Assembly: GCA_036630325.1 (NCBI GenBank)
Contig: CP142733.1
Coordinates: 372,001 to 436,000, forward strand
Reading direction: 5' to 3'
Length of the DNA stretch: 64,000 bases
Source: Vairimorpha necatrix
Taxonomy: Eukaryota
Notes under the pieces: generated by a model
What the model saw: only the letters and a program-made list of their open reading frames with translations
Told to the model about the DNA's origin: nothing
The model's database searches: none
In this document: positions 2,308-64,000 of the stretch, one piece after another
Numbering within the stretch: position 1 is the stretch's first letter
Layout: every line of letters starts with the position of its first letter
Made by a program: the position numbers and the translations under genes

Positions 2308-2390
2308 TGTTGAAGGAGTTAACAAGCATAAGGGGTTTATTTAATAATTATTATAAGGACACCAACATCCCCTCTGAAGTACCTTATCGG

Positions 2391-2906
2391 TTAACTTCTT
2401 TCATTTTTATTTTCTTTAAAGGATTCCTCTTTCCTTTTACTTTTCCTATTCACTTTCTTGCTCATGTTATTGTTACTAATAAGATTACAATGTACCTTAA
2501 GTTCATCCAATGAAGTATTTCCAGATAGTTCCAAAGCCCTGAAATCGTTACCTGGCCATAATTTTGTCGCCAGATGTTTAATAATGAGATTTTCCGAGCA
2601 TCCTAAGTCCTCTAATTTGGTTGCTATTCGGTCTATAAATTCGTCTCTTGTTTCTGAGTATACTTTATTTTCGAGACAAATTTTTAATACTTCATCTGAT
2701 GCAGTGGATTTGGTGGGGTAAAGTGCTGAGATATCCTCCCACTTTTTGATTTTCTTTTCGATTATTAACTTTCCTAATTCCATATCACAATTTCTAATTA
2801 AATAACTTGATTTTTTTTCTGGTGTAAGTTCTTTATCTAAATTCAAAAGTTCAGCTATGAACTGCAGATCTTTTTTTGTTATTTTTTGTCCCATCGCTGC
2901 TTCCAT
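2391..2906 (-). CDS. Extra ORF3 (171 aa) downstream of pol, possibly Gag/capsid-like
   Basis: Open ORF between the pol stop (2909) and the PPT. Start context CCCTAAAAATG overlaps the pol stop. No obvious signal peptide or TM segment. Confidence 0.6.
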   Translation of the reverse strand: MEAAMGQKITKKDLQFIAELLNLDKELTPEKKSSYLIRNCDMELGKLIIEKKIKKWEDISALYPTKSTASDEVLKICLENKVYSETRDEFIDRIATKLEDLGCSENLIIKHLATKLWPGNDFRALELSGNTSLDELKVHCNLISNNNMSKKVNRKSKRKEESFKENKNERS

Positions 2907-11789: not shown

Positions 11790-11950
11790 GTAAAAAAAAC
11801 ATTTGTCTCTATGAAAAAAATGAAATAAGTTTGTACTAAAAGAAACAAATTTGTATGTATGAAAAGAAACAAATTTGTCTGTATAAAAAGCCACAAATTT
11901 GTAGTTATAAACAGAATCAAATTTGTTTTTATGAAAAGAAGAAAAGTTTA
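11790..11950. repeat. Degenerate ~24-bp minisatellite, about 6 copies
   Basis: Repeated AAAAGAAACAAATTTGTxTGTATG-like units. Confidence 0.75.
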
Positions 11951-46470: not shown

Positions 46471-49400
46471 TGACGTAGCCATGCTGGTAAAAATGCTCCA
46501 GCATGTTGTCGTGGTCGTTTATATTAAATTTTTTATTTACAATGTTTTGTTTCTCGTTCCTCTGTTTTCTCATATTCATCGTTAGTTCGTATTTTAGGTA
46601 TGGGTAAGGGCAAAATTTATATTTATAGTTTTCTTTGGTTGTTTGTAAACAATTCGTTCAGATCAAACAAACAAAGAAACAAAAAAAAATGAATTACTTG
46701 TGGGATACCACAGTCTACCCTCCCCGAAAAAAAAAACTTATTATATCACTTTCTTAAAGCCTTAATGTCATTTACATGAATCCACTCGCTTCTTCCTTCT
46801 ATTTTACACCATAGTTTTTTATCACCTAATTTCTCAATTGTGTAAGGCCCTATATATCTGTCTTCTGATTTATTAGCATTAAAATTTCTTATGTAGACTA
46901 CATCATTAATATTTATTTCTGTTCGTTCCGATTTTGACAAATGTTTGGGTTCTTTCAATGATTTTAAATCATATTTAACCTCCTTTTTATCCAAATCAAA
47001 ATAGGAGTAAGACTTTATAACCGTTATCGGTGCGATTCCAATTCCTCTATGAAAGTTGATGTTTAATCTTCTGTTTATCATTTGTGTTACGTTATCGATT
47101 TGTTCTCCTTTGTATATTCTCAAAACTTCAGCTATCGTTTGATTTAATCGTTCACTAATTCCATTCGATGATGGGTTTTACATTGGCGTATTCGTTATTT
47201 TGATTTTTTGTACATTGCAAAATTTTTCAAATTCCTTACTCGTATATTGTTTACCATTGTCACAAATAATTGTATCAGGTGCTTCGAACTCTTAAATCCA
47301 AGCCTTTATGGTATTTATCAATTCTTGATTAGTTACTTTCGTATAAAATTTTACTAACGTATATCTACTATATACATCGGCCAGTGTCAAAAATATCCCT
47401 TGCTATCAAGCTCATCATGCTGATATTTATTTAAATTGAAGGGTCCAAATATGTCACTGGATAATACCTTAAATATCCTCTCTGAAAATATTCTATATTT
47501 TATCTTCGACTTCTTTTTATTCTCCTTACATTTAATGCATACTTCACAGCTTTCTACTACCTTTCTAATTGTTGTTCTTATATTTTTGACTTTGTATATA
47601 CCTTTTAAGTTTTGGTATAAAGAACTCATTCCTGCATGTACAGATAAAACATGCATGTCTTCTATAAATTGTTCTCTTCTTTCATCATCGACTTTGATTC
47701 TATCTTTTTCATCTTTTTGTAAAGTATTGTTCTCATATATTGCACTTTCCTTTAAAATTCTTTGTAATTCGGTCATTCTTGTCCCCGATATTATGCAACA
47801 TCTTGAAAGTCGGTCCGCTATATTATTATTATTTCCTTCTATATTTTTTATTGTAATGTTAAATTCGTTCAGAAGTAATTTCCATCTTTCTATTCGTTTC
47901 GAAATTTCCTTGTTCGCAAAAATGCAGTTTCTGCTATCCGTTTCTATTACCGTATGAAATCCCTGTAATAGTCCACGGTAAAATTCTAGGCTTTTAACAA
48001 TAGCATACATTTCCTTTTCCACTATTGAATAATTCCGTTCAATATCGTTAAATTTTTTGCTGTAATAATTTATTGTTCCATGTTCTTGAAACAATACTGC
48101 TCCCATTCCTTCAAGAGAGGCATCTGTTTGCAAGTAAAATGTTTTCTTAAAATCTGGCATTTTTAAGTGTGCTCTCGTTAATATATCTTCTTTAATTTTT
48201 TCTAACGCCTTTGGCTGTTCTAAGTTCCAACGCTCTTTAGAACCTTTTTGTAAAAGTCTTGTAATGCAAGTTATTTTCCTGCTTACGTCCGGTATGAAAT
48301 TTCGATACCACGTGATTATACCTACAATTTTCTGTATATCTTTTTTCGATGTTATGGGCTCCTTAACTTCTAGTATTTTGTTTACACTTTTTAAATCAAT
48401 CTTTATTTCTCCATTTTCTATGATACTTCCTAATAAATTTAGCGCTTCGGTAAGAAATGTCGTCTTTTCAAAGTTTATTTTAACAGTAAATTTTCTTAAA
48501 TTATCTAATACTTGATTAACGGTTTCATTATGTTTTTTAAAAGTATCGGCAAAAATTACAATATCGTCAATATAAACAGCACAATTTTCTATATTACCAA
48601 TTATATTATTTATAGTCATTTGAAATAACTTCGGTCCACATTTCAATCCAAATGGTATACGCTTGTATCTAAATTGTTGGCCAAACATGGTAAAGGTGGT
48701 TAAATCTCTACTCTCATTATCGATTACCATCTGATTAAATCCATTTTTTAGATCTATTATTGAAAAATACTTTGATTGCCCTATTTTCATTATCATATTA
48801 AAAATCTTCGGGATGCTAGACACTTCGTCCCTTATGAACTTATTAACCCATCTATAATCTACTACCAGTCTCAGTTCTTTGTTTTTCTTTTCAATTAAAA
48901 ACGATGGGCTTGCATAGCAATTTCTTGTTATTTCTATCATATCCAATTCCATCAATCGTTTAAGTTCTTTTTTGGCCCTTTGTTCATATTTGATTGGCAC
49001 CATATAATTGCGTATTTTCATTGTTTCGTTTTTAATATTTTCATCAAAAAATAATTTCACGGGCGCAATTTTTATTCTTTGAAAATTTTCATTTTCTTTA
49101 ATATAATTTTTTATATTTCTTTCTAAGTTTGTTCCTTTTAGAATTTCTTTATTCTTAATTAATCCTATACGTTCAAATAGAATGTTGTCGATCTCATCTT
49201 TAGTTAAGTCATCAGTCTCGTTCATCCTTAGAACTCTACCATTGATAATCAAGGATTTGTTTTTAAAATCCAAAACCATTTCATTGTCTAACATAAATTG
49301 GCTTCCAATTATCACGTCTTCGGGAAGTTCTTTTAATAAATAAAATTCAGCTTTTACCGGTCTACTCATTCCATGAATAAATACTTCTGTTTCAGTAAAC

Positions 49401-49653
49401 TTGCAAATAGTTTCCATTTCTCCGTTTGCGAAAATATTTGTCACTGGTTGTCCTTCTAAAATCTCTAGATTTAACTTATCTGCCACCCTTTGACTAATAA
49501 AATTTCTTTCAGCACCAGTATCTAATAATATTTTTGTGTCTATCTTATTTATTGCCACATTCAACTCAATCCTTTTTAATTTGGTCTTACTTTCCCTTAT
49601 TAAATTGAATTTCTCTTTCTTTTCTTGATTATTTCTATGTTGATAATATTTTG
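46471..49653 (-). mobile_element. 3' half (pol + 3' LTR) of Gypsy family B element
   Basis: 3' LTR at 46471-46712 preceded by a GGGGAGGG PPT. Long pol frame with LDTGA, YIDD, TDAS and HHCC motifs; frameshifts in integrase. Followed by TSD CTAAA on the minus strand. Confidence 0.95.
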
Positions 49654-50768
49654 GGTGCATCTTTAGTAACGTGCCGGAAGGTAACACCCCCCCCCTTACA
49701 GACAAAAATTTAACAAAATTTTGAAAAAAATATAAGAAAACGATATAAAAATGCTTATTTAATTCAGTAGTTTAGATAAAAGATCAACAAAACCCTTATA
49801 GAAGTCTCCCATATCATCTTCTCGAAGCATAAATTTCCTATACATAAATTCATCGAGCCATGTATCTATCTCCGACCGTTTTACTCCATGTTCTTTGGTC
49901 ATTTCAGACTTAAGTTGAGACCATACGTTCTCAATATTATTTGTATGAATACCATCAGGAGATAAAAAACCTATAGAATGATTAACAACTTGATGACTTA
50001 GACATAAATTTTCTGCCACCCCAGGATAACTAGGATGACCATCGCTATGTAAAACCGAACCTACACAAATTCTTCCCTCTAGAGCAGCAGTAAGGCACTC
50101 AATGGTTCTATTCTCTACCCTCGTAATGTAGAAGTTTGAAGGATTTTGAGCATCTATTATGCCAAAAATCCAAACGGTGTCCCTTATAAAGTCGTCCGAA
50201 GAGGTAGGAGATCTTATTTTACCCCTTCTGCATATAACAGACTCATCTACTTGAACGACTTGCCCGGGTCCTCCGATTATAATTCTATTCTTTAGCAAAT
50301 CTTTATAGATCTTTCTGAGGCTGCTTTTTACGGCAGAGATTGTAGCTGTTGAAACGCCCAATCTTGCCATCAACTGAAAGTAAGAATATCTGCATAATAT
50401 TCCAAATACAAGGTCACAGAATGTATGAAGAGGAACCTTGCAGCCTTTATTCACAGCCAACCGCGCACTGCATTTGTAGTTCGAACAGCGATATGCTACT
50501 CTTGTAACGATTTCTTCCTTGACAGGACCCAATCTCATGTTACATCCACATTTGGAACATGATTTTTGCTCCTTCAGCACTTCTAAGTCAATTAAAGCTT
50601 CTAAACAAGTGTCAACGTTATAAAAAAGCCTTTGTATATTCACAAGTTTAATTTTTGTGCTTTTCTTTAGTAACGTGCCGGAGTTTTCTAAATCGATGTT
50701 GTCCATTTTAGGGGTAAAAAAATATTTTTTAAAAAAACAAAATCCCGGCACGTTACTAAAGATGCACC
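49654..50768 (-). mobile_element. Merlin element A, potentially autonomous
   Basis: Perfect 24-bp TIRs GGTGCATCTTTAGTAACGTGCCGG and an intact transposase. The flanks do not match in the present arrangement. Confidence 0.95.
49759..50706 (-). CDS. Merlin/ISXO2-like DDE transposase, 315 aa
   Basis: CCCCTAAAATG start. CxxC...CxxxxC ribbon, VQVDES, LHSDG, VNHS and HTNNIEN motifs. Confidence 0.92.
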   Translation of the reverse strand: MDNIDLENSGTLLKKSTKIKLVNIQRLFYNVDTCLEALIDLEVLKEQKSCSKCGCNMRLGPVKEEIVTRVAYRCSNYKCSARLAVNKGCKVPLHTFCDLVFGILCRYSYFQLMARLGVSTATISAVKSSLRKIYKDLLKNRIIIGGPGQVVQVDESVICRRGKIRSPTSSDDFIRDTVWIFGIIDAQNPSNFYITRVENRTIECLTAALEGRICVGSVLHSDGHPSYPGVAENLCLSHQVVNHSIGFLSPDGIHTNNIENVWSQLKSEMTKEHGVKRSEIDTWLDEFMYRKFMLREDDMGDFYKGFVDLLSKLLN

Positions 50769-52010
50769 CGCTATTGAATTCAAAATATATTCCCAGCTCG
50801 GTCTACGCCTATAACCTTTATTTGTATATTCCTTTGGCCCGTTTGCAAGCCATTCCTGCCATTTTCTTTTTAATTCGGCCTTAAATGAAGAATTTATCAA
50901 AACATCCAATGATTGTAAATAAGACGTAGTTTTGGGGGGAATTAAAACGGTTTCAATGTTATTATTAGCAAAACTTTACATAACTTTTTCAGTATAGTGA
51001 GATTTATAGGTGTCAAGAATAAGAAGTTTTTTTTTTCTATTTTCAAATGGCCCATATTTGTTTAAACATGCACGAATCAATAATAACATCAGATTTTGAT
51101 TCATGTTCCCTGTTTCAGATGTAACTACAAAAAGATTATTTGGCACAAAGCATTTTGGCGGTTTTTTAAGGCCTTTTAAAATGGCCATTCCCCTTAAAAC
51201 AGTACCTTCTGAAGAAATAGTAATAACGACGGAAATTTTAGTCTTAAGATTTCCAGTTGTATATGCCTCAGTGTTTTTTTTCGCCGGTAAATGATAATGT
51301 TCGCGATTGCATCATATCAATGTAAACAGGAGTTTCATCCATATTATACACCACTGTTTGGCTGTCCATACAGTTAAATTTATGATTAAAAGCTTCAAAA
51401 TAATTCAACACGGTTTCTTTAATCTCCTGAGGCCTTCTGTTGTCTTCCTGTCCAAAAGATGTTATTTTTCTAAATGAAAAATGATTTCTTCTTTTGAACC
51501 CCATCAACTAACTCATACTTGCCTTAAAATCTGTAATGGACAACCTCTCTGCTATTTCAAAAGCCTTATCTCTAATATTATAAGTTGAGATAATTCGCTT
51601 CTTTTCACCTCGCTCTACCTTCACCCAATCCACCAACATTTTTTCAAGAGGAGGCCATTTGGCAGAAGTACCGGCACGCATTCTTTTGATATTTTTAATG
51701 TTGCTTTGGCCTAACATTTTAACTTCGGCCTTTTTCCAATCACGAAGCATTTTCCTAGTAATCTGCAACTCTAGAGCAGTCATACTTAAATTTCCATTGT
51801 TTTCCCGCAATCTTTGTAATCCTGCTAATTTTTCTTTTAGAGTGTAAGATTTCTTTTTCATGGGGTAAATTTAGAAAAAAAATTTAAAAGATATTTCAAA
51901 TATTTTATATCCTTATAAGAGATCCACCCATATAGAAATCCATGGTCTCTTATATGGGTGGATCTCTTAACCCGGAAAACCCGGTAAGAACCTATGGGAA
52001 TATATCTTAT
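50769..52010 (-). mobile_element. pogo/Tigger (CENP-B HTH + DDE_1) transposon, frameshifted, termini lost
   Basis: MKKKSYTLKEKL HTH, WPPLEKMLVDWV, YNMDETP, LILDTYKSH and MDVLINSSFK motifs in consecutive ORF fragments. Confidence 0.9.
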
Positions 52011-52012
52011 GT

Positions 52013-54514
52013 TGTAAGGACTGATAGCAGAAGATGCATTAAGAAACGACATTATGACTCAAAAGATTTTCAAAAATGGGATATGAGAAGCTTCTAGCTT
52101 GAGACTATCCATATTTAGGGCGAATTCGAGAATTGAACCTCTATTTTTTTGTGTATAACATTTAAAAAAACAGGATATAGTCGACGTATCAATTAATAAT
52201 AATTATCTCTATTTTTTAAGCAAGATTTTTGATGAAAAATATGTAGATACTTTTGTAATTCTAAGTATAAATCATTGCTCTTAATCTGACATTGGACTGT
52301 CCTATCACAGGTGGATCAATCACATCAGGTAATCACAAATTGGTAGTTTAGATATAAAAAAAAAGTTTTAATAAATATGCAATTTCATTCAGGCTTGTCC
52401 TCTATTTCCAAAATGGCGACAACGACAATAAAAGGATTCAAACAATACGGGGGCGACCCAGAAGAAGACATCTACTTATAAATGCAAGAAGCGCTATTCA
52501 TCGCAAGAATTACGAAAAAGACGGAGGCGGAAACAATTAAACTCATCTACTGCAGCTCGAAGGTAAAGCCCTGAGTTGGGCGGCAGAAACTATAGGGGAT
52601 CTTTAAACAAATTCAGCTGAGCGAGTTGATTGACGAATTAAAAGCACGGTTTGGGGACAACAAAATACAGATATATCCCCAAGGAGATTGTTTACAAGCA
52701 ACCCCCGGTCACCAGAATTAAATTCACAAAGTTATTAAAAGAGGCTACAATCCTCTATAAAAAGAACTACATGAATATAATCTTTTTGACGCAGGTGGTA
52801 ACTAACAAATTTTTGAGTGAAATCAAAGCCCTGCTATTATAAGCAGCAGAGGTGGTCCAGTCATGGGACCAATTGTGAAAAGGGCCGAAAACATCGCGTG
52901 GATATAATTCCCGGATAAAATTTTACAATGTATATGGAAAAAATAAGGCCGATGGGGGGGGGGGATTTGTGAAGAACCAATACTGCGGACTCCCGAGACA
53001 TTAGCCACCACACGTAAGATTACATCGTACTAAAAAAATTTGAAAACTAAGGGAACTAAACCAAAAAAAATCCGAACAATTAGAACCTACAGATCAAACT
53101 TCTTAACGAACAACGAACACTTCCAAATCACGAAAGAACGGGATGAACACAAATCAAACTTTATTCCTTATTTAACCTTTGCAACGTGACTAATCTTTTT
53201 TTCGAGACCATGGTACTGAACTTATGGCCTATTTTGTGCCAGAAAACCACCGGCGCGGACGTGTCAATCATAAACGAATCTTGCCTGAAAAATCTCAACT
53301 ATGCTATTGACAGCAACAAAGGAAATCCAAAGATAAGATCAGCATGCGAGACACAAATGAATATATCAAACAAAGCGAAACATATCATTTTACATAAAAA
53401 ACTGGGGAACTACTCGAAATTAGCCCCTATGTAGTAACAAACGGCCCTTCATATGTAATCCTAGGGATATATGACATTAAAATATATCCCGATCTCCCCA
53501 TCAAAACATCGAAAAAACTGAAAGATAAAAAACAGTAGGTGCTCAGGGTTGCACGTCTATATACATCGGAACGAGAGAAGATGGTTGCAAAATACCAAGA
53601 CTTGTTTTGGACCGAGATTTTAGAATTGAACGTATGCACAAAAGGCAAACACAAAATCAAAACAACTTTAAACGCACCTATATGTTCGAATGGGGGCAGA
53701 ATTTATGCATTTGAGCGGCAAATCGATAAAAAATAGAAAATACCCAAGGCTTGAAATTATAAAGAAGAGATAAAGCCTCTGGTGTATTCGAATTGTAGCG
53801 GTTCAAAAACTAGATGGCATTTAAGAATGTGCATAGATTACCAGCCACTGAATAGAACCACAGTGAAAGACGGATATTCGATACTGCGGATAGACGAAAT
53901 AGTAGACCATTTATCGTAAGCACTAATTTTTATATTTAGATACCACTTCAGGTTACTATCAAGTGGTAGTGAAGAAAAGAGACAAAGGAAAATCGCCTTT
54001 TCTTGGAGAGGAAGGCTTTACGAATTAACGAGAATGCCCTTCAGTCTATGTAACGGCCAGCAACGTCTCAAAGGATGAAAGATATATTTTTTAAGAGTAG
54101 CTTTAAATTTATCATTTCTTATCTCGATGACATCATAATCTATTCAAGAAACATCGAGGAACATAAGGGGCACGCTGAGAAGGCCATGAATATATTTTAG
54201 ATGGCATGAATATCTCTAAACAAAGCCAAGTGCGAATTCTTTAAATCAAGATCAAAATTTTAGGGGTAATCATCGGGCACAACAAGGTGGGCCAGACCCG
54301 ACAAAGTTAGATGCAATTCCTTGTTTCCGCTGCCAGGAACTGTTACACAACTGCGCTCATTTTGAGAATTGTGAACTATTGCAGAGGGTTTATTCGAGAC
54401 ACGCAACAGTAGCCCGTACTTTATTTATACTCGTCGGAGGAGGAAAGAAACTCGCAAAAGAAGGTTGTATACACCGAAAAAGAACTGCTAACATAAAGAA
54501 ATTATATAACATGT
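52013..54514 (+). mobile_element. Degenerate Gypsy element H (putative LTR, gag, protease, RT)
   Basis: Gag-like start at ~52413. RT motifs RMCIDY, RMPFSL and YLDDIIIYS with many stops. LTR boundary tentative. Confidence 0.8.
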
Positions 54515-54616
54515 TGTTACCGGCTGTGTTGCACACGCCAATAATCAGACCAAAACTGAAAGATGAAACAGTTGATAATGATCTGAAACCATCTTTGTTT
54601 CAGATCCGAAACTAAA
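54515..54616 (+). mobile_element. 5' part of the split family G solo LTR
   Basis: CATGT then TGTTACCGG. Contains hairpin GATCTGAAAC-7nt-GTTTCAGATC. Confidence 0.8.
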
Positions 54617-55622
54617 TGTGGTATCCCACAAGTAATTCATTTTTTTTTGTTTCTTTGTTTGTTTGATTTGAACGAATTGTTTACAAACAAACAAAGAAAA
54701 CTATAAATATAAATTTTGCCCTTACCCATACCTAAAATACGAACTAACGATGAATATGAGAAAACAGAGTAACGAGAAACAAAACATTGTAAAAAAAAAA
54801 TTTAATATAAACGACCACGACAACATGCTGGAGCATTTTTACCAGCATGGCTACGTCAGATTGAATTCAATAGACACAAAAGTAGCAATAGAAATGACAA
54901 ACAAAAACAACGAAATATACAAAACAATGACATTCGAAATTCATATCAAAGGACTAAACGAACGACTCAAACAGGAAATTGTAATTATAGAAGACATTGA
55001 AAAGATAGATATTATTAGGTGGTGTAAAGATTTTGAAGAACTGATAACTAGTAACAAATGGAGTAAAGTGATAGTATCTAAAGTCCTAAAAACACTCATA
55101 AAAGATGAAAGAGTCGAAAGGGAAGAATTGGAGAATTCTTGGAAGTACATTAAAACATATCTGTTTTCCATACTTTATCCCAAGGAAGAGGAGAGACTAT
55201 ATGCTAAGAAACTGGAAAGTATTTATCAAATTAAATTTAGATCGATAGTTCAATATAACAAAGAGATAAAAAAATTAATGAACATTTATAAAATAATTTC
55301 GGATATGAATGAAAAAGAATATGACAAAAAAATAGCGACCGTATTTTTTAACGGCTTAAGCAAATATACCTATGGAAAAATCTTAGAACTACAAATAACA
55401 AATTATGAAGAGTGTTATGCATATTTACTGGATATCGAGAAAAAATTAACTACGAAATGCAAAGAAATGAACGAAGGAAAAAGAAAGAATGAGAAGATAG
55501 TTCCAACGAATTCTCAACAAGATGAAAATATTAAGAAGAATTATGAGGAGAGAAATTTTTGCAAATTACATCGCTGGTGTAACCACACGACCGAGGAATG
55601 CACCAAGTACGATCCAAAATAT
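54617..55622 (+). mobile_element. 5' half (5' LTR + gag) of Gypsy family B element
   Basis: LTR at 54617-54858 preceded by CTAAA. Gag ORF starts at 54750 inside the LTR and has the CHHC knuckle CKLHRWCNHTTEEC. Ends at CAAAATAT before Merlin B. Confidence 0.95.
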
Positions 55623-56730
55623 GGTGCTCCTTTGGTATGCGATCAGAATTTTTTTTTAAAAAAAAAATTCTGACCCCCCTAAAAATGGAAAATAGTGACT
55701 TTAAAATTTCTGATCGCATACCAAAGAAAAGCACAAAAATTAAAATAAAGGTTATTCAAAGGCTTTTCTAAGGCATCGACGACTGTTTAAACTTATTACT
55801 TGAGTTAGAAGTCTTGAAAGAGCAAAAGACGTGCTTTAAATGCAATGAGATTTCAAATGTTGTATTATATAAGGAGAGAGAGGTTAAAAGAGTGGTATAC
55901 AGGTGTTCTAATTATACAATGCTAAAATAACAGTTAACAAAGGAAGCAAGTTACCTTTATATAATTTTTGTGAATTAATATTTTTAATTTTGTGTAGGAG
56001 TAGTTATTTTACTTTAGAGGCAAAACTAGGAGTTTCTTCATCGACAGTTTCCGATGCAAAAAAAAGAATTAGAGAAATTTTATAAACAAAATTTCTAAGA
56101 GGCTTATTATTGATGGACCAAGAAAAATTGTCCAAGTTGATGAGTCTGTAATTTGTAGAAGAGGTAAAATAAGAAATCCAACAAGTTGTGATGATATAAT
56201 CCCTGATACTGTTTGGATACTAGGTATAGTAGAAGCATCTAATCCTACGAACTTTTACATTACAGTGGTGGATAATAGAAAAGTCGAGTGTTTAACAGTT
56301 GCTCAAGAAGGTAAAACAGGGGTTGGTTCGATTTTACATAGTGATGGTTATCCGATTTATCCAAGTGTAGCACGAAATTTTTGTCTTGAACATAAGGTAG
56401 TAAACCACTCTATCGGGTTTAAATCTGCAGATGGTACTCATACCAATAACATTGAGAATGTATGGTCGCAGCTAAAATCTGAAATGACCAAAGAACATAG
56501 AGTTAAGCGTAATGAAATTGATTCATGGCTGCAATGATTTTATATATAAGAAAGATTTTTGTAAAGAGGACAATTTAGAGGAGTTTTACGACTGTTATGT
56601 TGATTTATTGTATAATTTACTCAATTAAATCAAATTTATAGTATTTTTTAACGTTTTTTCATATTTTTTTCATTTTTTTTCCTTTACAAGGGGGGGGTCT
56701 TGGTGTCCGATCGCATACCAAAGAAGCACC
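55623..56730 (+). mobile_element. Merlin element B with pseudogenised transposase, homologous to Merlin A
   Basis: TIRs GGTGCT(C/T)CTTTGGTATGCGATC. ATG at 55685. HTNNIENVWSQLKSEMTKEH shared with Merlin A. Confidence 0.93.
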
Positions 56731-57351
56731 TATCGTTCTATTCTTTTATTGCTCCTATGATCTTCTAATCCTACTTTCCGTTGCATAATTCCGTTTTCTT
56801 TACACCAAGTTACTAATTCCTTGCCGTTTTCATATATATTTTTTTGAGCATCTATCTTCTTTACTTATTTTTTTAAAAATTCCGTATTAACATCATTTCC
56901 CCTTTTGCGCCCATATTCTTCTCATAAAGTAGTCAATCCCTAATAGCACGTATCTTCCTTTTTCTTGAATATTTATGACGTATCCCAGGCGGATATACGC
57001 CTCAATGAAATTACAGGTACTTTCAAAAGTAAAGTTTTTATTGTTTTTAGATTTTGTATTATCATTCCTGCTCATCATATCCTTTTAAGCTTTTCGCTAT
57101 TTATAGTTTTAAATGTTTGTTTGTAAACAAACAATAACAAAAAGTTTCAAAAAGTTTTTTGAGAACGGAGTATAGTGCCGCATTGCAGGAACTTTGAGTA
57201 TTTGTTAAGGGCAGTATGCAAATAATGTGATGAGATATGTTGCGTTTGATCAAGTCCTCATAATTCATTACGTCTAAAGCTATTTTCTCTAATTAAACAA
57301 ATGTCGTTACAAAATGCATCCTCCGGTCGTTTTTCAGTTATTTATATTATA
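56731..57351 (-). mobile_element. Gypsy integrase fragment related to 12443-18340
   Basis: GRYVLLGIDYF motif and DNA similarity to ~13000-13300. Confidence 0.7.
56976..57262 (-). mobile_element. Solo LTR of the gag-in-LTR clan
   Basis: Ends ...TACGTCA like family B. TSD ATTTA/ATTCA. Internal ORF ends FIEAYIRLGYV at the LTR boundary. Confidence 0.75.
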
Positions 57352-59080
57352 TGTCGCGAGCCCAGCTGGTTACCGTAATTTTTCTTATTTTTTTAGACTA
57401 TTTTTTTTTTTAATTCTATGAATTATATTTTCATAATTTTATACCGTATTAATCAGTAACTATTTTACAGGAAACTTTTTCTTTGACACTTTTTTCTACG
57501 CATATACGGCTCGAACCAGATGCTTGCAGGACAAAAGCACAAGCAAACCACTGAGCTAAACTAAACTGTTTAGTAATAAAAAATACAAGAATATTAAAAC
57601 AATGTATAATTCATTTTCCCCTAATGAAAGGAATCAAAACTCAAGATAAGTATAATCTTCTTGTTAATTTACTGCAAGGAGATGATTGGAGTGCAATTGT
57701 CGACAAAAAAGTAAGGTATAAGTGTTAAAAATTGCCGAAAACTCTTCTCTTGCAGATAATATACTCTTTTTGTGAGATATTTCTGACTTGCGCAAAATGT
57801 AGTTGTGAGAGTTTAATACAGTCCATGGTATTCGAAATACGAACTCTACATAGATGTATCACTATGGACACAATCGTTTATATGAGTTGTGCCAGCAATT
57901 TTAATTCAATACTCCCAGAAGCCTCGTGCGAGAGGTTTGCAAAGAGTGCAATATTGTTCACAAACACACCTTTTAAAAAATAAAACCTACAAGCACATAT
58001 TTGCTAAAGGCCCTTTGAGGGTGTCATCATCGACCTAGAGACATTAGGTGGTATGCTGACGAAAAACGAAATATTGTTGATACTAACAGCTTTAGATGTA
58101 TAGTCTAAGTATGTATTTACCAATTTTATAAAGTATAAAACGGCCTCAAAAGTTTTACTACATTTAAAATATAATTTAAATCGATATGGACTTCCTTGTA
58201 AACTCCAGTGTGATAATGGTAAAAGATTTAAAAAATCACTTTTATTTGAATTCTGCGAGCAGAATAAAATTTTACTAGTCCATGGCAGACCCAGGCATCA
58301 TCAGAATCAAGGTCAAGTTGAGAGATTTAATCAAACTCTTTCTCGATAATTGCAAACATCGATATGCAGAATTTGGTCCAATATAAAAAACTGGGTCTAT
58401 TTAATTGACACAGTTCTTTTTCGTACAACATCGTCGCACATTTTGCAACAAAAAAAATCTCCATTTGATTCTTTTTATGGAAGAAAGGGATATAATACTT
58501 GTAAATGCAGCAACAACGACGAAGAAATCATCGAAGAAGACTTAGATTTTATGTTTAAGCGAGAAAATAGATCTATGGTAGATGAAAAATATCTCTTAAG
58601 AATGACAAAAAATGTGTCTACAATTCTATCAATGATTTTATTATAGGCGATAATGTGATGTTAAAAAGGATTTTGATGCTAACTTTAAACCAAAAAAGTT
58701 AAAACTAAGTTCGTTTCATTCCGAACCAAGAGAAGTAATAGCAATTTTGTCTTATAATCGATTAAAAGTTAAGTTTAATGATTCTATAGAAATTGTGTTA
58801 ATGAATTTGTTAAAAAATTAAATAAATAGTTAAGCTTTGATTATTAAAATATCATTCGCAAATTTTATTTTTAAATTTTTAACATGAATTTTTTCAATAC
58901 ATTTTATTATTCTATACTAATGTTACTTTAATTCAACATAAACGTAGATGTGTCATAAGTATATTGAATTAGATTTTAACTTTTGAATGCATAAAATACT
59001 TGTTCTATTTTCTAATAGTACAAACAATTTTGTTGAAGCCTTCCAGATTATAACTAGCGTGCTGCACAGGGATGCGGCTT
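57352..59080 (+). mobile_element. Second, diverged Ginger-like element; integrase pseudogene at 57624-58830; right end not found
   Basis: Left TIR TGTCGCGAGCCC. CCCCTAATG start MKGIKTQDKYNLLV aligns to MKEVKDQVEYDRLV. HGRPRHHQNQGQVERFNQTL motif. Confidence 0.85.
57508..57558 (-). promoter_or_regulatory. Pol III A box + B box in the second Ginger-like element
   Basis: TAGCTCAGTGG (57558-57548) and GGTTCGAGCC (57517-57508) on the minus strand, in the same position and orientation as in copy 1. Confidence 0.6.
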
Positions 59081-59401
59081 GTTATAAAATAATACTATAA
59101 GGAACTATACGTTTGTGCGTCTGTCCTTGGCAGGCTTTTATAATATTTATTGTTAAAGCGGAGGAGGGATCCGAATCCCCCTCAGAGGGTGTTCACTTTA
59201 TTTTTTCGAACCCCAAAATTGAAGTTCAAAAAAAGGAGACAAAAATTCCTAACAACTTTAAATATTAAAAATATAAAATATATATATATTTGAATTCATA
59301 ATTTAATTTTAGTCCAGAAGGTATATCTTATCTTTATTAATACTTGATTTTTAAGCCCATAAAATTTTCACAGTTTACTTTATAATTTGGGCTAAAGTTA
59401 G

Positions 59402-62400
59402 TGTGGTATAATATCTCATACCACATGTTTATGGTGACCAATAGACGATGAAACGCTAATGTGCTTTGATACACGTCAAGCATCTCTAATTGTTAGTGGA
59501 CAGTTCTGAAACACTAATTTCTAATTGGTTACACACAAATATAAATAACGAAATTCATCACTTAAAAAGAATGAGGATGCCTAAGAACAACAACAGCCGC
59601 ACTCCAGCTCAGGCCCATGACGGCAATAACAATAAACACTATTCAAATACATTTACACCTACCTTGGGAATTCATGGTACACATAACCGTAGCATTATTG
59701 AATGCTTTCTTGCCACTGGCACAATTCCAGGTAAATACGCCAATTTGAGCTCAAATGGCAATAAAGGTACAAAGTCATTTACATCTGGAGATAAACATCA
59801 TTACGCGGAATTTAAAAGAACTGTTGAAGGTACAGACGTACCAATCCAAGACTATATACTCAAGATATTTAATATCAAATCAGATCTCACTACAGCAGGT
59901 CTCAAAGAGTTTGAAACTCTTTCTGAGTATAATAAGTGGAATGACACACAAAGCGGTCAAATTTACCATAGTCTAATCTATGATTCTACTTATAAGGATA
60001 AACTTACTAGGAACAGTTACAAGGCACTGAGAAAAGAACTTCTAGACATACTGTATCCAAAGACCCAACACAGAATTCTCTCGCAAAAAATTGACAATAT
60101 CAGGCAAACTGATCATTTTTCCATTAACGAGTATATGGAAACAATTTCTAAAGGATTAGAAGGCTACATTCATGTCAACGATCTTTCAAGAAAGGAAGTG
60201 GAAAGAAAACAAGAAGAAATATTTTTCAAAGGTTTGGGAAGATATACCACTATCAAGATTACCGATCAAAGACTCAAAACGGCTCCATTTCAAGAAATTA
60301 TTCAATTTTTAATAGAACTGGAAGAAAGCATATTATCCCAGTCCGCAGAGACCAAACAAGGCTTAATAACCCAGACAACGGGTGCGAACAAGACTAAATA
60401 CGCCTTTACTAATAAGAAGTGGTGTAAATACCATCACTCGAAGTTTCACAACACTAAAGATTGTTCCCTTCATAAAACCTCACAATCAGAAGATGTCAAA
60501 AGCATGATTATCACTGAACTTAAAGTCGACAATCATGAAGGGATAAAAATTCAAGGAGAATTAAATGGAACTAACCTACAGTTATTTGTTGACACGGGTG
60601 CATCTTGCAATTATATTCACGAAAAACTGTTAAAGTCCTTAAAGCTGAACACAATTGAAACTAAACCTCTAACTATGATATTTGGATGTGGTACTAAAGA
60701 AACCACTAGTCGAGCCGTCGAAACTAAAATACGTATTAAGGATAAAGACTATGATATCACATTTTATGTTTTACAGCGTATACCAGAAGATATTATCTTG
60801 GGATATGAATTTTTATATGCTAACGAAGCAGTAGTAAACTTAAGAAAGAAAATTATTACCTTAGGAAATGGACATACTATCCCATTTATTGGGGCTGAAG
60901 TTACATCTGAGGAAATTCTTGATGAAATATTAGCTGAAAGCACTTGCTTACCCATACTCATGGAAGATAAAAAACTATTAAAAATCTTTAAGCAGTATTT
61001 TAAATTTAATGACCAATTTAGCCACATCAAAAATTTCTCAATATCGTTCCAACTTAAATCAGATATTCCAAGTTCGAAGACAAGGCACTACTCTGTCCCA
61101 GGAAAGTTTTTACCAGCAGCAAAAGAGGAAATTAAAAGACTGGTTGAAAACGACATTATTGAACCGTGCACCTCCAACATATCAAGCCCTGCATTTTTTA
61201 TCAAAAAGAAGAACGGCGAGTTACGTCTTGTGGTAGATTATAGAACGGTTAACACATACGTTGAAGATGATTTATATGTTATACCCTTGATAGATGAAAG
61301 CTTCCGATTGATGCAAGGTTGCAAGATTTTCAGCCAAATCGACTTACGCAATGGTTTTAACCAATTGCTCTTGGATAAAAATAGCAGAAACATAACGTCT
61401 TTCACTCTTCTCGGTCGACAATGGCGATATAAAAGAGTCCCTTTTGGGATCAAGCCAGGTCCAAAAATATTTCAAAGACACATTTCAGAAATTTTAAGCC
61501 ATATAGACAATTGCTTTGTCTATATAGATGACATAATTCTGTACTCCAAAAGCAGGGAAGAGCACGTAATCCTACTCAATAGAGTACTTGAGACACTGTA
61601 CCAATATACAGTCAAGATCAATTTCGATAAGTCGAAATTCTGCACCACTGAACTCGTTATATTAGGTGCCAGAATCAACAAAAATGGTATATCACCAGTC
61701 ATCGATAACCTCGCGGCTAAAATTCTACAAATAGATCTGAAATCAAAACGAAGCGTTCAACAGCTTATAGGAACATTAAACTGGTATCGGAAATTTGTTC
61801 CTCGTATATCAACACGTATTTCGGAATTAACAGAATTGCTAAAAAAAGGAGAAAAACATTATAAATTACCAGAAGCTACAAAAACAGAGATTAACGCTAT
61901 TATTGAAGAGCTTAAAGTAGTCAAGCTAGGATTCCCAGATTATAGAAAGAAATTTACACTTCAAACAGACGCTTCAGAAAAAGGAATAGGTAGCGTACTT
62001 CTACAAGAAGACATAATCATAGGTTATTATAGCAAGAAACTGGCAGGCTCTGAACTTAATTACACTATAGTCGAAAAAGAGTATCTAGCCATTCTTCTCT
62101 CCGCAATTCATTTTGAAAGCATCATTCAGGGATGTTATGTAGAAATACATACTGACAGTAACAACTGTTCGTTTGAAAATAAAAGCCTAACCACGAGGAT
62201 TAACAGATGGAAACTGATCATGAATAAATTTAATCATAAGATCTTCCATATCAAAGGAAAGGATAACACAGTAGCAGACACATTATCGCGTTGTCTACTT
62301 TTACAGATCATGCCTCTCAAGATACAATACGACAATGTCGTTAAAACTTCATGCACGTCAAACAACGGCGTATTACTCAGGAACGATAGAGGCCAACTGG

Positions 62401-63679
62401 TTATCAGGAATGACAAAATCAAATCTTTCCTAAAAAGCATACATGACATATCAGGTCACCGAGGAGTTTCTACACTCTACAACAACATTAAAAAATACAT
62501 TTACGTAAAAAACGCCCTACAAAGGATATCTTGGGTAGTAAAAAGTTGTTCTGTATGCAGAAAATTCAAGATAATTAACAATAGTCATCAAAATACGGTG
62601 AAGATGGATTCATCTAGATTATACGAGCGCATATCATCAGATATCTTCGGACCATTCAAGTATCATACTCCTTCCCCGAACTCTGAGGAGAAGATAGGAT
62701 ATATACTTACGATATCAGATATATATTCTAGAGAAGTGATGTTAATATTCTTTAAGACGATTAAAACTCAAGAATTAATCGATTCTATAGAAGCATGGAT
62801 TAAGACAAGAGACAGGCCTAAGCATTTAATATCGGATAACGGACGACAATACATCTCCGCAGGTTTCAAAGAGTATCTAGCTACTACAGGAATAAATCAC
62901 ATTCTAATACCGACATACACACCCAAATCAAATGGGATATCCGAACGCCTAAACCAAACTATTGCCTTCACGCTTTCCATAAACAAATTCCGAGACATCT
63001 ACGAGACTGTTAAAGAAGCAGAAAATATATTAAATATCAACTTTAATCGAGGGATTAAAGCCTCGCCTTATCTTATAGCATATGGCAGGGACTTCTACGA
63101 TTTAGACACCAAACAGCAAACAATAACAAAAAAACCAAACGCTGTAGCGTATACTTCTAAGTTCAACGTGGGAGACATTGTCTACAAAAGAAATTTAAAA
63201 GCAGGAAAACTCGATCGGAAATATGGAACAAGACAAATAGTTGAAGAAGTGGGAAGCAAAGGTAAATGGGTTCGCTTAAAAGATGACGAATCATGGACGC
63301 ATGTCCGAAACTTGAAATTTTAGTTGGAGTTGGCAGTATGTGGTATAATATCTCATACCACATGTTTATGGTGACCAATAGACGATGAAACGCTAATGTG
63401 CTTTGATACACGTCAAGCATCTCTAATTGTTAGTGGACAGTTCTGAAACACTAATTTCTAATTGGTTACACACAAATATAAATAACGAAATTCATCACTT
63501 AAAAAGAATGAGGATGCCTAAGAACAACAACAGCCGCACTCCAGCTCAGGCCCATGACGGCAATAACAATAAACACTATTCAAATACATTTACACCTACC
63601 TTGGGAATTCATGGTACACATAACCGTAGCATTATTGAATGCTTTCTTGCCACTGGCACAATTCCAGGTAAATACGCCA
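59402..63679 (+). mobile_element. Intact, recent Ty3/Gypsy LTR retrotransposon (family C)
   Basis: 341-bp LTRs at 59402-59742 and 63339-63679, identical by eye. Perfect TSD GTTAG. Single open gag-pol frame. Inserted in a Merlin TIR. Confidence 0.98.
59571..63323 (+). CDS. Gag-Pol polyprotein (Gag, CHHC knuckle, protease, RT, RNase H, integrase)
   Basis: First ATG at 59571 (or 59577) lies inside the 5' LTR. CKYHHSKFHNTKDC, VDTGA, YIDD, QTDAS, HHCC, SDNG and NGISER motifs. Confidence 0.95.
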   Translation: MRMPKNNNSRTPAQAHDGNNNKHYSNTFTPTLGIHGTHNRSIIECFLATGTIPGKYANLSSNGNKGTKSFTSGDKHHYAEFKRTVEGTDVPIQDYILKIFNIKSDLTTAGLKEFETLSEYNKWNDTQSGQIYHSLIYDSTYKDKLTRNSYKALRKELLDILYPKTQHRILSQKIDNIRQTDHFSINEYMETISKGLEGYIHVNDLSRKEVERKQEEIFFKGLGRYTTIKITDQRLKTAPFQEIIQFLIELEESILSQSAETKQGLITQTTGANKTKYAFTNKKWCKYHHSKFHNTKDCSLHKTSQSEDVKSMIITELKVDNHEGIKIQGELNGTNLQLFVDTGASCNYIHEKLLKSLKLNTIETKPLTMIFGCGTKETTSRAVETKIRIKDKDYDITFYVLQRIPEDIILGYEFLYANEAVVNLRKKIITLGNGHTIPFIGAEVTSEEILDEILAESTCLPILMEDKKLLKIFKQYFKFNDQFSHIKNFSISFQLKSDIPSSKTRHYSVPGKFLPAAKEEIKRLVENDIIEPCTSNISSPAFFIKKKNGELRLVVDYRTVNTYVEDDLYVIPLIDESFRLMQGCKIFSQIDLRNGFNQLLLDKNSRNITSFTLLGRQWRYKRVPFGIKPGPKIFQRHISEILSHIDNCFVYIDDIILYSKSREEHVILLNRVLETLYQYTVKINFDKSKFCTTELVILGARINKNGISPVIDNLAAKILQIDLKSKRSVQQLIGTLNWYRKFVPRISTRISELTELLKKGEKHYKLPEATKTEINAIIEELKVVKLGFPDYRKKFTLQTDASEKGIGSVLLQEDIIIGYYSKKLAGSELNYTIVEKEYLAILLSAIHFESIIQGCYVEIHTDSNNCSFENKSLTTRINRWKLIMNKFNHKIFHIKGKDNTVADTLSRCLLLQIMPLKIQYDNVVKTSCTSNNGVLLRNDRGQLVIRNDKIKSFLKSIHDISGHRGVSTLYNNIKKYIYVKNALQRISWVVKSCSVCRKFKIINNSHQNTVKMDSSRLYERISSDIFGPFKYHTPSPNSEEKIGYILTISDIYSREVMLIFFKTIKTQELIDSIEAWIKTRDRPKHLISDNGRQYISAGFKEYLATTGINHILIPTYTPKSNGISERLNQTIAFTLSINKFRDIYETVKEAENILNINFNRGIKASPYLIAYGRDFYDLDTKQQTITKKPNAVAYTSKFNVGDIVYKRNLKAGKLDRKYGTRQIVEEVGSKGKWVRLKDDESWTHVRNLKF

Positions 63680-63684
63680 GTTAG

Positions 63685-64000
63685 CTTTAGGACGCAAATT
63701 TCGATATAGGGTTTTTTTGTTTTTTTTGCCCTTTTTTTTAAAAAATGGAAGAAAGAAAATGTGGAGGAAGGAACAAAAATTAAAATTAGAACAATAAATT
63801 TAATAATGCATCGAAAACAGAATTAGAGGAATTTCTCTGGAGCATATACCTAAGTAAATAAAGTTTGGCGCTGTTTTTTGACCTATTTCTGTTAAGTATG
63901 GAATTTTTGAGTGAACGCCAATTACCTTCAATGGTATCGGTGTGTACTCCAATATTTTGATCTCGAAAGTTTAATGAGTGGTTTACCATATAATGTTTTT
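63685..64000 (-). mobile_element. Merlin element related to 14464-17002; its TIR starts at 59390 and is split by the family C element; runs off the window
   Basis: GGCTAAAGTTAG + CTTTAGGACGCAAATTTCGATATAGGG rebuilds the TIR. VNHSLNF..GVHTDTIEGNW motif. Confidence 0.88.

What the first reader, a model, noticed from the sequence alone, without database searches (positions are those of the whole stretch)
59743..59756. LTR retrotransposons with a covarying perfect palindrome in place of the tRNA primer-binding site
Seen: the intact family C element has no TGG-type PBS. Its 5' LTR is followed directly by ATTTGAGCTCAAAT, a perfect 14-bp palindrome. The diverged family B has ATTGAATTCAAT (54860-54871, perfect 12-bp) after its 5' LTR. 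Both palindromes are centred 7.5 nt from the LTR end and share TTGA-xx-TCAA. Their differences are compensatory pairs (central GC vs AT, flanking T/A vs A/T) even though the overlapping Gag codons change (NLSSN vs RLNSI), so selection appears to act on self-complementarity. Established: Ty3/Gypsy elements normally prime minus-strand synthesis from a tRNA 3' end, and Tf1-type elements self-prime from the transcript 5' end. Inference: a third mode, such as two genomic RNAs pairing through the palindrome (or a fold-back) with cleavage to give the primer. I do not know of this being described.
Basis: partly seen in the sequence, partly recalled or inferred. Interest (0 to 1): 0.9.

Follow-up and report, generated by a model that had tools for sequence, protein, structure and literature searches.

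The report
Palindrome replaces primer site in retrotransposons
A group of jumping genes in microsporidian parasites carries a short self-complementary sequence exactly where such elements normally bind a host tRNA to start copying themselves, which points to an unusual and still unproven way of starting reverse transcription.

Summary
Family C is an intact Ty3/gypsy element. Its two 341-bp LTRs are identical and it has a 5-bp target duplication. The 14-nt palindrome ATTTGAGCTCAAAT starts at the first base after the 5' LTR. Family B has ATTGAATTCAAT one base after its LTR end, and a solo LTR fixes that end independently. Neither has a TGG-type PBS at the junction, and neither has a Tf1-type complement in its own LTR. 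The palindrome lies inside Gag, whose start codon is in the LTR. Codon choice shows selection on the nucleotides. In 39 Gag N-termini (B, C and 37 database relatives), the aligned pentapeptide allows a palindrome of at least 12 nt in 37. The background rate is 3.5% of positions. Residues 1, 2 and 5 covary as base pairing predicts. No DNA of relatives could be fetched, so this wider evidence is inferred from proteins. The host tRNA test could not be run. The best reading is a self-complementary stand-in for the PBS that starts minus-strand synthesis without a tRNA (confidence about 0.5). The claim that this is undescribed is wrong in part. Fungal GalEa Copia elements have a published palindromic "Conserved Hairpin Site" at the same position, and its mechanism is also unknown.

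The parts
59397..59401 (+). Target-site duplication GTTAG, left copy (family C)
   Evidence: Same 5 bases at 63680-63684
59402..59742 (+). Family C 5' LTR (341 bp, TG..CA). It holds a TATAAATA box near 59541 and the Gag start codon at 59571
   Evidence: 341 of 341 bases identical to 63339-63679; sequence read
59571..63323 (+). Gag-Pol ORF of 1250 aa. It starts inside the LTR and runs through the palindrome
   Evidence: ORF list and translation. Pfam gives protease, RT, RNase H and integrase in Ty3/gypsy order
59743..59756 (.). Perfect 14-nt palindrome ATTTGAGCTCAAAT at the PBS position. It encodes N-L-S-S-N
   Evidence: Self-duplex energy -17.3 kcal/mol
59739..59759 (.). Extended imperfect inverted repeat GCC[A]ATTTGAG/CTCAAATGGC that spans the U5 end
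   Evidence: Pair counts. Predicted homodimer gains -16.5 kcal/mol over two monomers, against -6.8 +/- 2.8 for shuffles
63322..63338 (+). Purine-rich tract (polypurine-tract candidate) just before the 3' LTR
   Evidence: Sequence read. The role is inferred from position
63339..63679 (+). Family C 3' LTR
63680..63684 (+). Target-site duplication GTTAG, right copy
54617..54858 (+). Family B 5' LTR (242 bp). It holds a TATA box and the Gag start codon at 54750
   Evidence: The end is fixed by the solo LTR
54860..54871 (.). Perfect 12-nt palindrome ATTGAATTCAAT, one base after the B LTR. It lies within the codons for R-L-N-S-I
54855..54875 (.). Extended inverted repeat GTC[AG]ATTGAA/TTCAAT[A]GAC that spans the U5 end of B
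54750..55622 (+). Family B Gag part, ending at the insertion of a Merlin/IS1595-like transposon
46761..49653 (-). Family B Pol part on the opposite strand
   Evidence: tblastn at 38% identity to C; translation; junction
46471..46712 (-). Family B 3' LTR on the minus strand. The GGGGAGGGTAGAC tract at 46725-46713 lies just upstream of it
   Evidence: 238 of 242 bases identical to the 5' LTR, and the same outer flank CTAAA
20044..20285 (+). Solo family B LTR with duplication GGCTG. It defines the LTR ends independently

Best explanation
The palindrome is a conserved, self-complementary cis-acting element. In a clade of microsporidian Ty3/gypsy retrotransposons it stands where the tRNA primer-binding site normally is.

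Shown:
- It abuts U5 (offset 0 or 1 nt).
- It is embedded in the Gag reading frame.
- It is kept by selection on the nucleotides.
- It has no partner elsewhere in the LTR.

Inferred:
- The U5 boundary marks where minus-strand DNA synthesis begins, so the primer's 3' end must pair with this sequence.
- The only conserved property of the sequence is that it pairs with itself. The primer is therefore most likely the element's own RNA.
- This could work in two ways. Two packaged genomic RNAs could form a 12-20 bp duplex through the palindrome. Alternatively one RNA could fold back on itself.
- In either case an RNase H-type cut beside the palindrome would free a paired 3'-OH that reverse transcriptase extends into U5-R, much as Tf1 cuts its own 5' end.
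- The same duplex would also serve as a dimer linkage.
For: 1. Position. LTR ends are fixed by target-site duplications and by a solo LTR. The palindrome begins at +1 in C and +2 in B.
2. No TGG within 13 nt in C or within 100 nt in B.
3. No complement of 7 nt or more of the post-LTR 30 nt in either LTR.
4. B against C: 3 pairs changed on both sides, 0 changed on one side only, and 19 of 20 cells paired.
5. Codon choice: P = 0.0011 and 0.0072 given the peptides.
6. Relatives. A Gag profile found 301 proteins at E <= 0.001, of which 150 were listed. Of 155 candidates, 49 had the N-terminal anchor motif within 70 aa. I dropped 11 because the regex had hit a downstream motif and added 1 by hand, which leaves 39.
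7. At the aligned pentapeptide, 37 of 39 sequences (27 of 29 distinct peptides) can encode a palindrome of at least 12 nt, and 23 of 39 a 14-nt one. The background is 3.45% of single positions in the same proteins.
8. Shuffling residue 5 among the sequences gives means of 18.4 and 10.5, and 0 of 5000 shuffles reach the observed counts.
9. Covariation fits base pairing. The middle residue is S, N or I in most. These are three of the four residues whose A-NN' codons (AGC, AAT, ATA) keep the centre paired (ACG, Thr, was not seen).
10. Residue 4 is Ser or Leu (TCA or TTA). The other two choices would give stop codons.
11. With Leu at residue 2, residue 5 has an A-initial codon. With Met at residue 2, residue 5 has a T-initial codon.
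12. With Asn at residue 1, the second base of residue 5 is a purine (10 of 10 unambiguous cases). With Lys or Met at residue 1 it is a pyrimidine (5 of 5). Fisher p = 3.3e-4.
13. The carriers are named as Nosema granulosis, Vairimorpha necatrix, Vairimorpha apis and Dictyocoela muelleri.
14. The identical LTRs of C suggest a recent, working element.
15. A published analogue exists at the same position in fungal GalEa elements.
Against: - There is no direct evidence of priming, cleavage or dimerisation.
- No RNA data were available.
- DNA is in hand for only two junctions (B and C). The other 37 cases are back-translation feasibility, not observed nucleotides, and their LTR ends are unknown.
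- The anchor regex may miss relatives that lack the site, so 37 of 39 may overstate its prevalence.
- Two aligned relatives (P0142 and P0145) do not allow the palindrome at that register.
- Host tRNAs and their fragments could not be compared.
- A long self-derived primer raises a problem. Plus-strand strong-stop synthesis would need a defined stop or a second cut on the 5' side of the palindrome, and nothing in the data addresses this.
- The spacing differs by one base between B and C.
- An LTR-like remnant at 12240-12030 (minus strand) has the Gag N-terminal motif but no palindrome after it. It may be a solo or broken LTR.
Confidence: 0.5

Rival explanations
1. The palindrome is only a dimerisation or packaging signal, like the dimer-linkage palindromes of retroviruses and Ty1. 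Minus-strand priming uses some other primer that I did not recognise.
For: Perfect palindromes near the PBS are known dimer contacts in retroviruses and Ty1. I saw this only in the search listing and abstracts, and the rest is recalled. The predicted homodimer is strong: -31.3 kcal/mol for C and -29.2 for B.
Against: There is no room for a separate PBS. The palindrome starts 0-1 nt after U5 in both families. B has no TGG within 100 nt. Known dimer sites lie beside a PBS and do not replace it, a point the GalEa authors also make.
Confidence: 0.25
2. The site binds a host small RNA, such as an internal tRNA segment or a tRNA half as used by copia and Ty5 (recalled). Its palindromic look would be incidental to that RNA.
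For: Priming from internal tRNA segments exists. FunCo1 Copia elements are reported with a PBS complementary to an internal tRNA-Lys region. I could not test host tRNAs.
Against: At least 27 distinct peptide variants keep self-complementarity through paired changes. A host RNA would fix one sequence per family and gives no reason for symmetry. B and C differ at 3 pairs, always on both sides. No Rfam family, tRNA included, matched 54400-64000 at its gathering score. The four weak hits were miRNA models far below threshold.
Confidence: 0.08
3. The palindrome works as double-stranded DNA. It would be a binding site for a dimeric protein, either a host factor or integrase, just downstream of the LTR promoter.
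For: Palindromes of 12-14 bp are typical sites for dimeric DNA-binding proteins (general knowledge). The site lies about 170 nt (C) or 110 nt (B) downstream of the Gag start codon in the LTR.
Against: A protein site would conserve a sequence. Here the centre varies freely (GC or AT observed in DNA; TA and others inferred) and only the symmetry is kept. Exact adjacency to the U5 end is not explained.
Confidence: 0.07
4. A conserved Gag peptide (x-L-x-S-x) happens to be encoded by a palindrome, with no role for the nucleic acid.
For: Leu and Ser at positions 2 and 4 are conserved, and the site follows a conserved Gag motif (L-E-x-Y-F..G).
Against: The middle residue switches among Ser, Asn and Ile, which are chemically unlike but are the pairing-compatible codons. 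Residues 1 and 5 covary by codon base and not by chemistry (Fisher p = 3.3e-4). 0 of 5000 shuffles reach the observed counts. Codon choice in B and C has P = 0.0011 and 0.0072.
Confidence: 0.02

Closest known systems
[quoted passage not shown]
   Same: No tRNA-type PBS. A short palindrome sits directly at the 5' LTR junction. The variants differ by paired substitutions (CTGATCAGT against CTAATTAGT). No Tf1-type complement was found. The authors propose that it replaces the PBS and say no known model fits.
   Different: GalEa belongs to another superfamily (Copia) and another host group. Its palindrome is 10 bp and includes the last A of the LTR. It is always followed 12-41 bp later by a second inverse-complementary copy (CHSeq2) that forms a hairpin. 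B and C have no second copy of 7 nt or more within 100 nt on either side. Here the palindrome is 12-14 nt, lies inside the Gag ORF, and extends imperfectly into U5.
Tf1/Tf2-type self-priming Ty3/gypsy elements
   Same: Ty3/gypsy order of domains. No tRNA primer. The primer is proposed to come from the element's own RNA by RNase H cleavage. The Tf1 mechanism is recalled and is also described in the passages read.
   Different: Tf1 needs its PBS to be complementary to the first bases of its own transcript. Here no complement of 7 nt or more exists anywhere in the LTR, and the site pairs with itself.
Dimer-linkage palindromes of retroviruses and Ty1 (DIS, PAL sequences)
   Same: Self-complementary sequence near the 5' end of the genomic RNA that can join two genomes. 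In Ty1 the cis signals also lie inside the Gag ORF, which starts in the LTR (recalled; only the listing and abstracts were seen).
   Different: Those elements keep a separate tRNA PBS. Their palindromes are usually in a hairpin loop and are not flush with U5.
Internal-tRNA or half-tRNA priming (copia, Ty5, FunCo1)
   Same: The PBS does not begin with TGG (recalled; the FunCo1 example is).
   Different: Those sites match a fixed host tRNA segment and are not palindromic. Here symmetry, not sequence, is conserved.

Membership tests
Ty3/gypsy (Metaviridae) LTR retrotransposon | Pol domain order protease, RT, RNase H, integrase | tested here: met
   Pfam hits in that order on P0001
Ty3/gypsy (Metaviridae) LTR retrotransposon | Direct LTRs with TG..CA ends and a short target-site duplication | tested here: met
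   LTRs identical at 341 of 341 bases; 5-bp duplications GTTAG (C), GGCTG (solo B) and CTAAA (B)
Ty3/gypsy (Metaviridae) LTR retrotransposon | tRNA 3'-end primer-binding site (TGG...) within a few bases of the 5' LTR | tested here: not met
   First TGG at offset 13 in C, and none within 100 nt in B
Tf1-type self-priming elements | PBS complementary to the 5' end of the element's own transcript (within the LTR) | tested here: not met
   No complement of 7 nt or more of the post-LTR 30 nt in either LTR. The best RNAduplex hit in C is the junction itself
Tf1-type self-priming elements | RNase H cut that frees the self-primer | not testable with these tools
   Needs biochemistry or cDNA end mapping
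GalEa-type Conserved Hairpin Site | Palindrome directly at the 5' LTR junction in place of a PBS | tested here: met
   Offsets 0 (C) and 1 (B). Unlike GalEa, the LTR's last A is not part of the perfect palindrome
GalEa-type Conserved Hairpin Site | Second inverse-complementary copy (CHSeq2) 12-41 bp downstream | tested here: not met
   Only 6-mers were found within 100 nt
GalEa-type Conserved Hairpin Site | Member of the GalEa clade of Ty1/Copia | tested here: not met
   Domain order is Ty3/gypsy, and the nearest relatives are microsporidian gypsy elements
Retroviral or Ty1 dimer initiation site | Palindrome that joins two genomic RNAs | tested here: inconclusive
   Only predicted energies are available. 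There is no experiment
Retroviral or Ty1 dimer initiation site | Present in addition to a separate PBS | tested here: not met
   No separate PBS between U5 and the palindrome

The most novel reading that the evidence does not exclude
Palindrome-based self-priming is a real third way to start minus-strand synthesis. The primer-binding site and the primer would be the same self-complementary sequence, cut out of a genomic RNA duplex or fold-back. It would have arisen independently in microsporidian Ty3/gypsy elements and in fungal GalEa Copia elements, freeing these elements from host tRNAs.
Probability: 0.4. Interest if true: 0.85.

Novelty: new variant of a known kind. Interest (0 to 1): 0.66.

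Why it matters
LTR retroelements are taught as being primed by tRNA, with Tf1 self-priming as the one studied exception. The palindromic site of fungal GalEa elements has stood since 2017 without a mechanism.

A second, unrelated lineage now shows the same solution. It comes with many natural compensatory variants and a young element (family C, identical LTRs) that looks active. Together these make the question open to experiment. They also suggest the mechanism is general and not a curiosity of one clade.

There is a practical point too. LTR-finding software that demands a tRNA PBS will reject these elements, so they are likely to be under-annotated in microsporidian genomes.

Tried and rejected
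- No whole genome is held for this window, and the window has no tRNA gene. The host tRNA test could not be run.
- A word-based protein search with Gag residues 1-300 found nothing in the near length class.
- Sequencing runs: no RNA holder was listed. The laid runs were contigs only. Both families are multi-copy in X1 and X2, but no variant rows were displayed at either palindrome, and 659 rows were not shown, so nothing can be concluded.
- DNA of relatives: three scans of viral contigs found none. Two scans of genome contigs found none.
- One scan of metagenome contigs gave 17 distant loci at 22-40% identity (best segment). Only L001 matches the N-terminal half of Gag, and it is cut at its start. 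L003-L005 match only a later part of Gag (query residues 151-300). L017 is an unrelated GC-rich element.
- Rfam: nothing at gathering score in 54400-64000.
- Other G/C-containing palindromes in the window (7284-7295 and 18515-18528) and TTGAGCTCAA at 2280-2289 were read. I could not tie any of them to an LTR junction.
- My first statistic was the best feasible palindrome within 19 residues after the anchor. It was too permissive and I dropped it in favour of the fixed aligned site with a background.
- The shuffle control on the two-sequence DNA alignment has no power (74 of 500 shuffles).
- Supplementary files of PMC5445492 (the element list and CHS alignments) could not be seen and may hold closer parallels.
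- Searches for earlier descriptions in microsporidia found none. This covers only the open-access library that was searched.
Full report
**What is at the coordinates**

Family C is a complete LTR retrotransposon.
- Its LTRs are 59402-59742 and 63339-63679. They are identical at 341 of 341 bases and run TG..CA.
- The element is flanked by the 5-bp duplication GTTAG.
- A single ORF of 1250 aa (59571-63323) carries protease, reverse transcriptase, RNase H and integrase in Ty3/gypsy order.
- The start codon lies inside the 5' LTR, about 25 nt after a TATAAATA box. R-U5 is therefore coding, and the ORF runs straight through the LTR end.
- The first base after the LTR opens the perfect 14-nt palindrome ATTTGAGCTCAAAT (59743-59756), read as N-L-S-S-N.

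Family B has the same layout.
- Its 5' LTR is 54617-54858, with the Gag start codon at 54750 inside it.
- One base (G) follows the LTR, then ATTGAATTCAAT at 54860-54871, within the codons for R-L-N-S-I.
- The 3' end of the B LTR is fixed independently by a solo LTR at 20044-20285. That solo LTR has its own duplication, GGCTG, and is inserted in the RT of another element.

**Is it more than chance?**

- Palindromes of at least 12 nt with at least one G-C pair occur at about 2.7e-4 per position in this AT-rich window. That is 17 centres, against 22.7 expected from a first-order Markov model. One at offset 0-1 from an LTR end is therefore unlikely.
- Codon choice is stronger evidence. Given the peptides and each element's own codon usage, the palindromic codon sets have probability 0.0011 in C and 0.0072 in B. 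TTG makes up only 9% (C) and 13% (B) of Leu codons.
- I aligned 27 nt of B and C across the junction and scored a 10-pair helix. The helix also includes three pairs reaching into U5, GCC/GGC in C and GTC/GAC in B, across a one- or two-base bulge.
- In that helix 19 of 20 cells pair. Three pairs change on both sides, none changes on one side only, and one cell (G/A in B) is unpaired. Sliding the partners by 1-3 columns drops pairing to 6-50%.
- With two sequences the shuffle control has no power (74 of 500 shuffles).

**Relatives**

No whole genome is held, and I could not obtain DNA of close relatives. The scans are listed under Tried and rejected. Proteins could be used instead, because the site is coding.
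- The Pol part finds microsporidian elements at 38-45% identity. They are named Vairimorpha necatrix, Nosema granulosis, Hamiltosporidium magnivora and, more distantly, Dictyocoela muelleri. Some records are labelled as bacterial MAGs.
- A profile of the B and C Gag parts, run against 1.84 billion cluster representatives, found 301 proteins at E <= 0.001, and 150 were listed.
- Of 155 candidates, 49 had the conserved N-terminal anchor motif (like L-E-x-Y-F) within the first 70 residues.
- I dropped 11 whose regex match was a downstream motif and that lack the N-terminus. I added P0004 by hand because the regex missed it. This leaves 39 sequences including B and C.
- All 39 align a pentapeptide right after the anchor region: NLSSN, RLNSI, NLISK, ILNSI, ILSSN, MLNST, KLNSM, IMISL, SMISC, MLSLT, AMNSL and others. 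There are 29 distinct peptides.

I then asked whether synonymous codons can make a perfect palindrome centred between bases 2 and 3 of the middle codon, as in B and C.
- With the register fixed, 37 of 39 sequences allow at least 12 nt and 23 of 39 allow 14 nt. For three rows I set the register by hand.
- The exceptions are P0142 (ALNAE) and P0145 (TFKSI).
- With an automatic choice of register within +/-2 residues, 39 of 39 allow at least 12 nt.
- The background in the first 330 residues of the same proteins is 3.45% for single positions and 14.9% for the best of five registers.
- Shuffling residue 5 among the sequences gives means of 18.4 and 10.5. None of 5000 shuffles reaches the observed 37 and 23. 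The same holds for distinct peptides only, where 27 and 17 are observed against means of 12.2 and 7.1.

The pattern of substitutions is what base pairing predicts, not what protein chemistry predicts.
- The middle residue is Ser, Asn or Ile in most. Their codons AGC, AAT and ATA are three of the four A-NN' codons with a paired centre.
- Residue 4 is Ser (TCA) or Leu (TTA). The other two complements would be stop codons.
- With Leu at residue 2, residue 5 has an A-initial codon. In the four sequences with Met at residue 2, residue 5 is Ser, Leu, Cys or Leu, all with T-initial codons.
- With Asn (AAY) at residue 1, the second base of residue 5 is a purine in 10 of 10 unambiguous cases. With Lys (AAR) or Met at residue 1 it is a pyrimidine in 5 of 5. 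Fisher p = 3.3e-4.
- Both sequences with Met at residue 1 have Thr at residue 5, as a G-C pair requires.

Caveats apply to this part.
- These are feasibilities, not observed nucleotides.
- The LTR ends of the relatives are unknown.
- The sequences are related to each other, although each represents a cluster at 50% identity.
- The anchor filter may miss relatives that lack the site.

**What it is not**

- It is not a tRNA 3'-end PBS. The first TGG is at offset 13 in C, and B has none within 100 nt.
- It is not a Tf1-type site. No complement of 7 nt or more of the 30 nt after the LTR exists in either LTR.
- It is not a known RNA family.
- It is not the two-part GalEa hairpin. There is no second copy of 7 nt or more within 100 nt.
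- I could not test whether a host tRNA fragment matches. Conserved symmetry across at least 27 sequence variants argues against any fixed host RNA as the partner.

**How it most likely works**

Shown: a self-complementary element under nucleotide-level selection sits flush with U5, where the primer must anneal.

Inferred: the primer is the element's own RNA.
- The predicted homodimer of a 54-nt segment is -31.3 kcal/mol in C and -29.2 in B.
- The gain over two monomers is -16.5 in C and -11.8 in B, against about -6.7 +/- 2.7 for shuffled sequences.
- The monomer can also form a small hairpin.
- A cut just 3' of the palindrome would leave a paired 3'-OH that reverse transcriptase could extend into U5-R. 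The cut could be in one strand of a dimer or in a fold-back. This is analogous to the RNase H cut of Tf1 (recalled, and described in the passages read).
- The same duplex would link the two genomes.

Open problems:
- How the primer is trimmed on its 5' side, so that plus-strand strong-stop synthesis ends correctly.
- Why the spacing differs by one base between B and C.

I give about 0.95 that the palindrome is a selected nucleic-acid element, and about 0.5 that it is the tRNA-independent priming site.

**Comparison with what is known**

The closest published case is the Conserved Hairpin Site of fungal GalEa Copia elements (PMC5445492). I read the abstract passages, section 10 in full and the discussion passages.
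- Those elements have no PBS.
- A 9-bp sequence becomes palindromic when the LTR's last A is included.
- 85% of families carry CTGATCAGT or CTAATTAGT, which differ by a paired change.
- A second inverse-complementary copy lies 12-41 bp downstream.
- The authors state that no described model fits.

A later paper on bivalve TRIMs repeats that the mechanism is unknown. A search for the phrase finds only these two papers.

Searches for microsporidian retrotransposon primer sites found no description. This holds only for the open-access library searched, and the older Nosema bombycis retrotransposon papers I recall were not in it.

The feature is therefore a new variant of a known but unexplained kind. 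It occurs in another superfamily and another host group, has a single longer palindrome, and lies inside Gag.

**Verdict**

The novelty claim is reduced by the GalEa precedent. The finding remains interesting because it gives a second, independent lineage with rich natural covariation and a young element with which to test the mechanism.

Noticed in passing
window 46471-49653 (-) and 54617-55622 (+): The family B element is split into two parts on opposite strands. Both outer ends carry the same flank CTAAA, and the two LTRs are identical at 238 of 242 bases. It is therefore one insertion that was later inverted.
   Followed up: partly
window 55623-56700 (+) and 49668-50770 (-): Two diverged copies of a transposon with terminal inverted repeats and an ISXO2/IS1595-like (Merlin-type) transposase lie in inverted orientation. 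The arms 49856-50289 and 56097-56530 are 73% complementary. One end abuts B gag and the other abuts B pol, each next to the 8-bp duplication CAAAATAT (55615-55622 and 49653-49646). Recombination between the two copies probably caused the inversion.
   Followed up: partly
window 20044-20285: A solo family B LTR with duplication GGCTG is inserted in the reverse transcriptase of another, decayed gypsy element at 19672-21024.
   Followed up: yes
window 12240-11990 (-): An LTR-like remnant starts TGTGGTAT and has a TATA box and a Gag N-terminus with the conserved motif (SILENYLRTGHIPVHD). No palindrome follows and the frame stops after 17 more codons. I could not place its end or a target duplication. 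A 24-nt tandem repeat follows at 11792-11935.
   Followed up: partly
window 50771-50783: The 13-mer TTGAATTCAATAG, identical to the B palindrome region, also occurs beside the inverted repeat of the Merlin-like copy, at the end of a decayed pogo/Tc5-like ORF. I have no explanation for it.
   Followed up: no
proteins P0005, P0019, P0150: Records labelled as bacterial MAGs (Lactobacillaceae and Aeromonas) and a transcript labelled Mikrocytos mackini encode this microsporidian-type element. P0019 and P0150 include the palindrome-compatible site. Contamination by a microsporidian is the simplest reading.
   Followed up: no
window 2280-2400 and 7370-7400 (-): A further repeat family shares the motif AACCCCTTATGCTTGT...TTCAACATT at both places. 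It may be the LTR of another retroelement family. TTGAGCTCAA lies 20 nt after one copy only.
   Followed up: no
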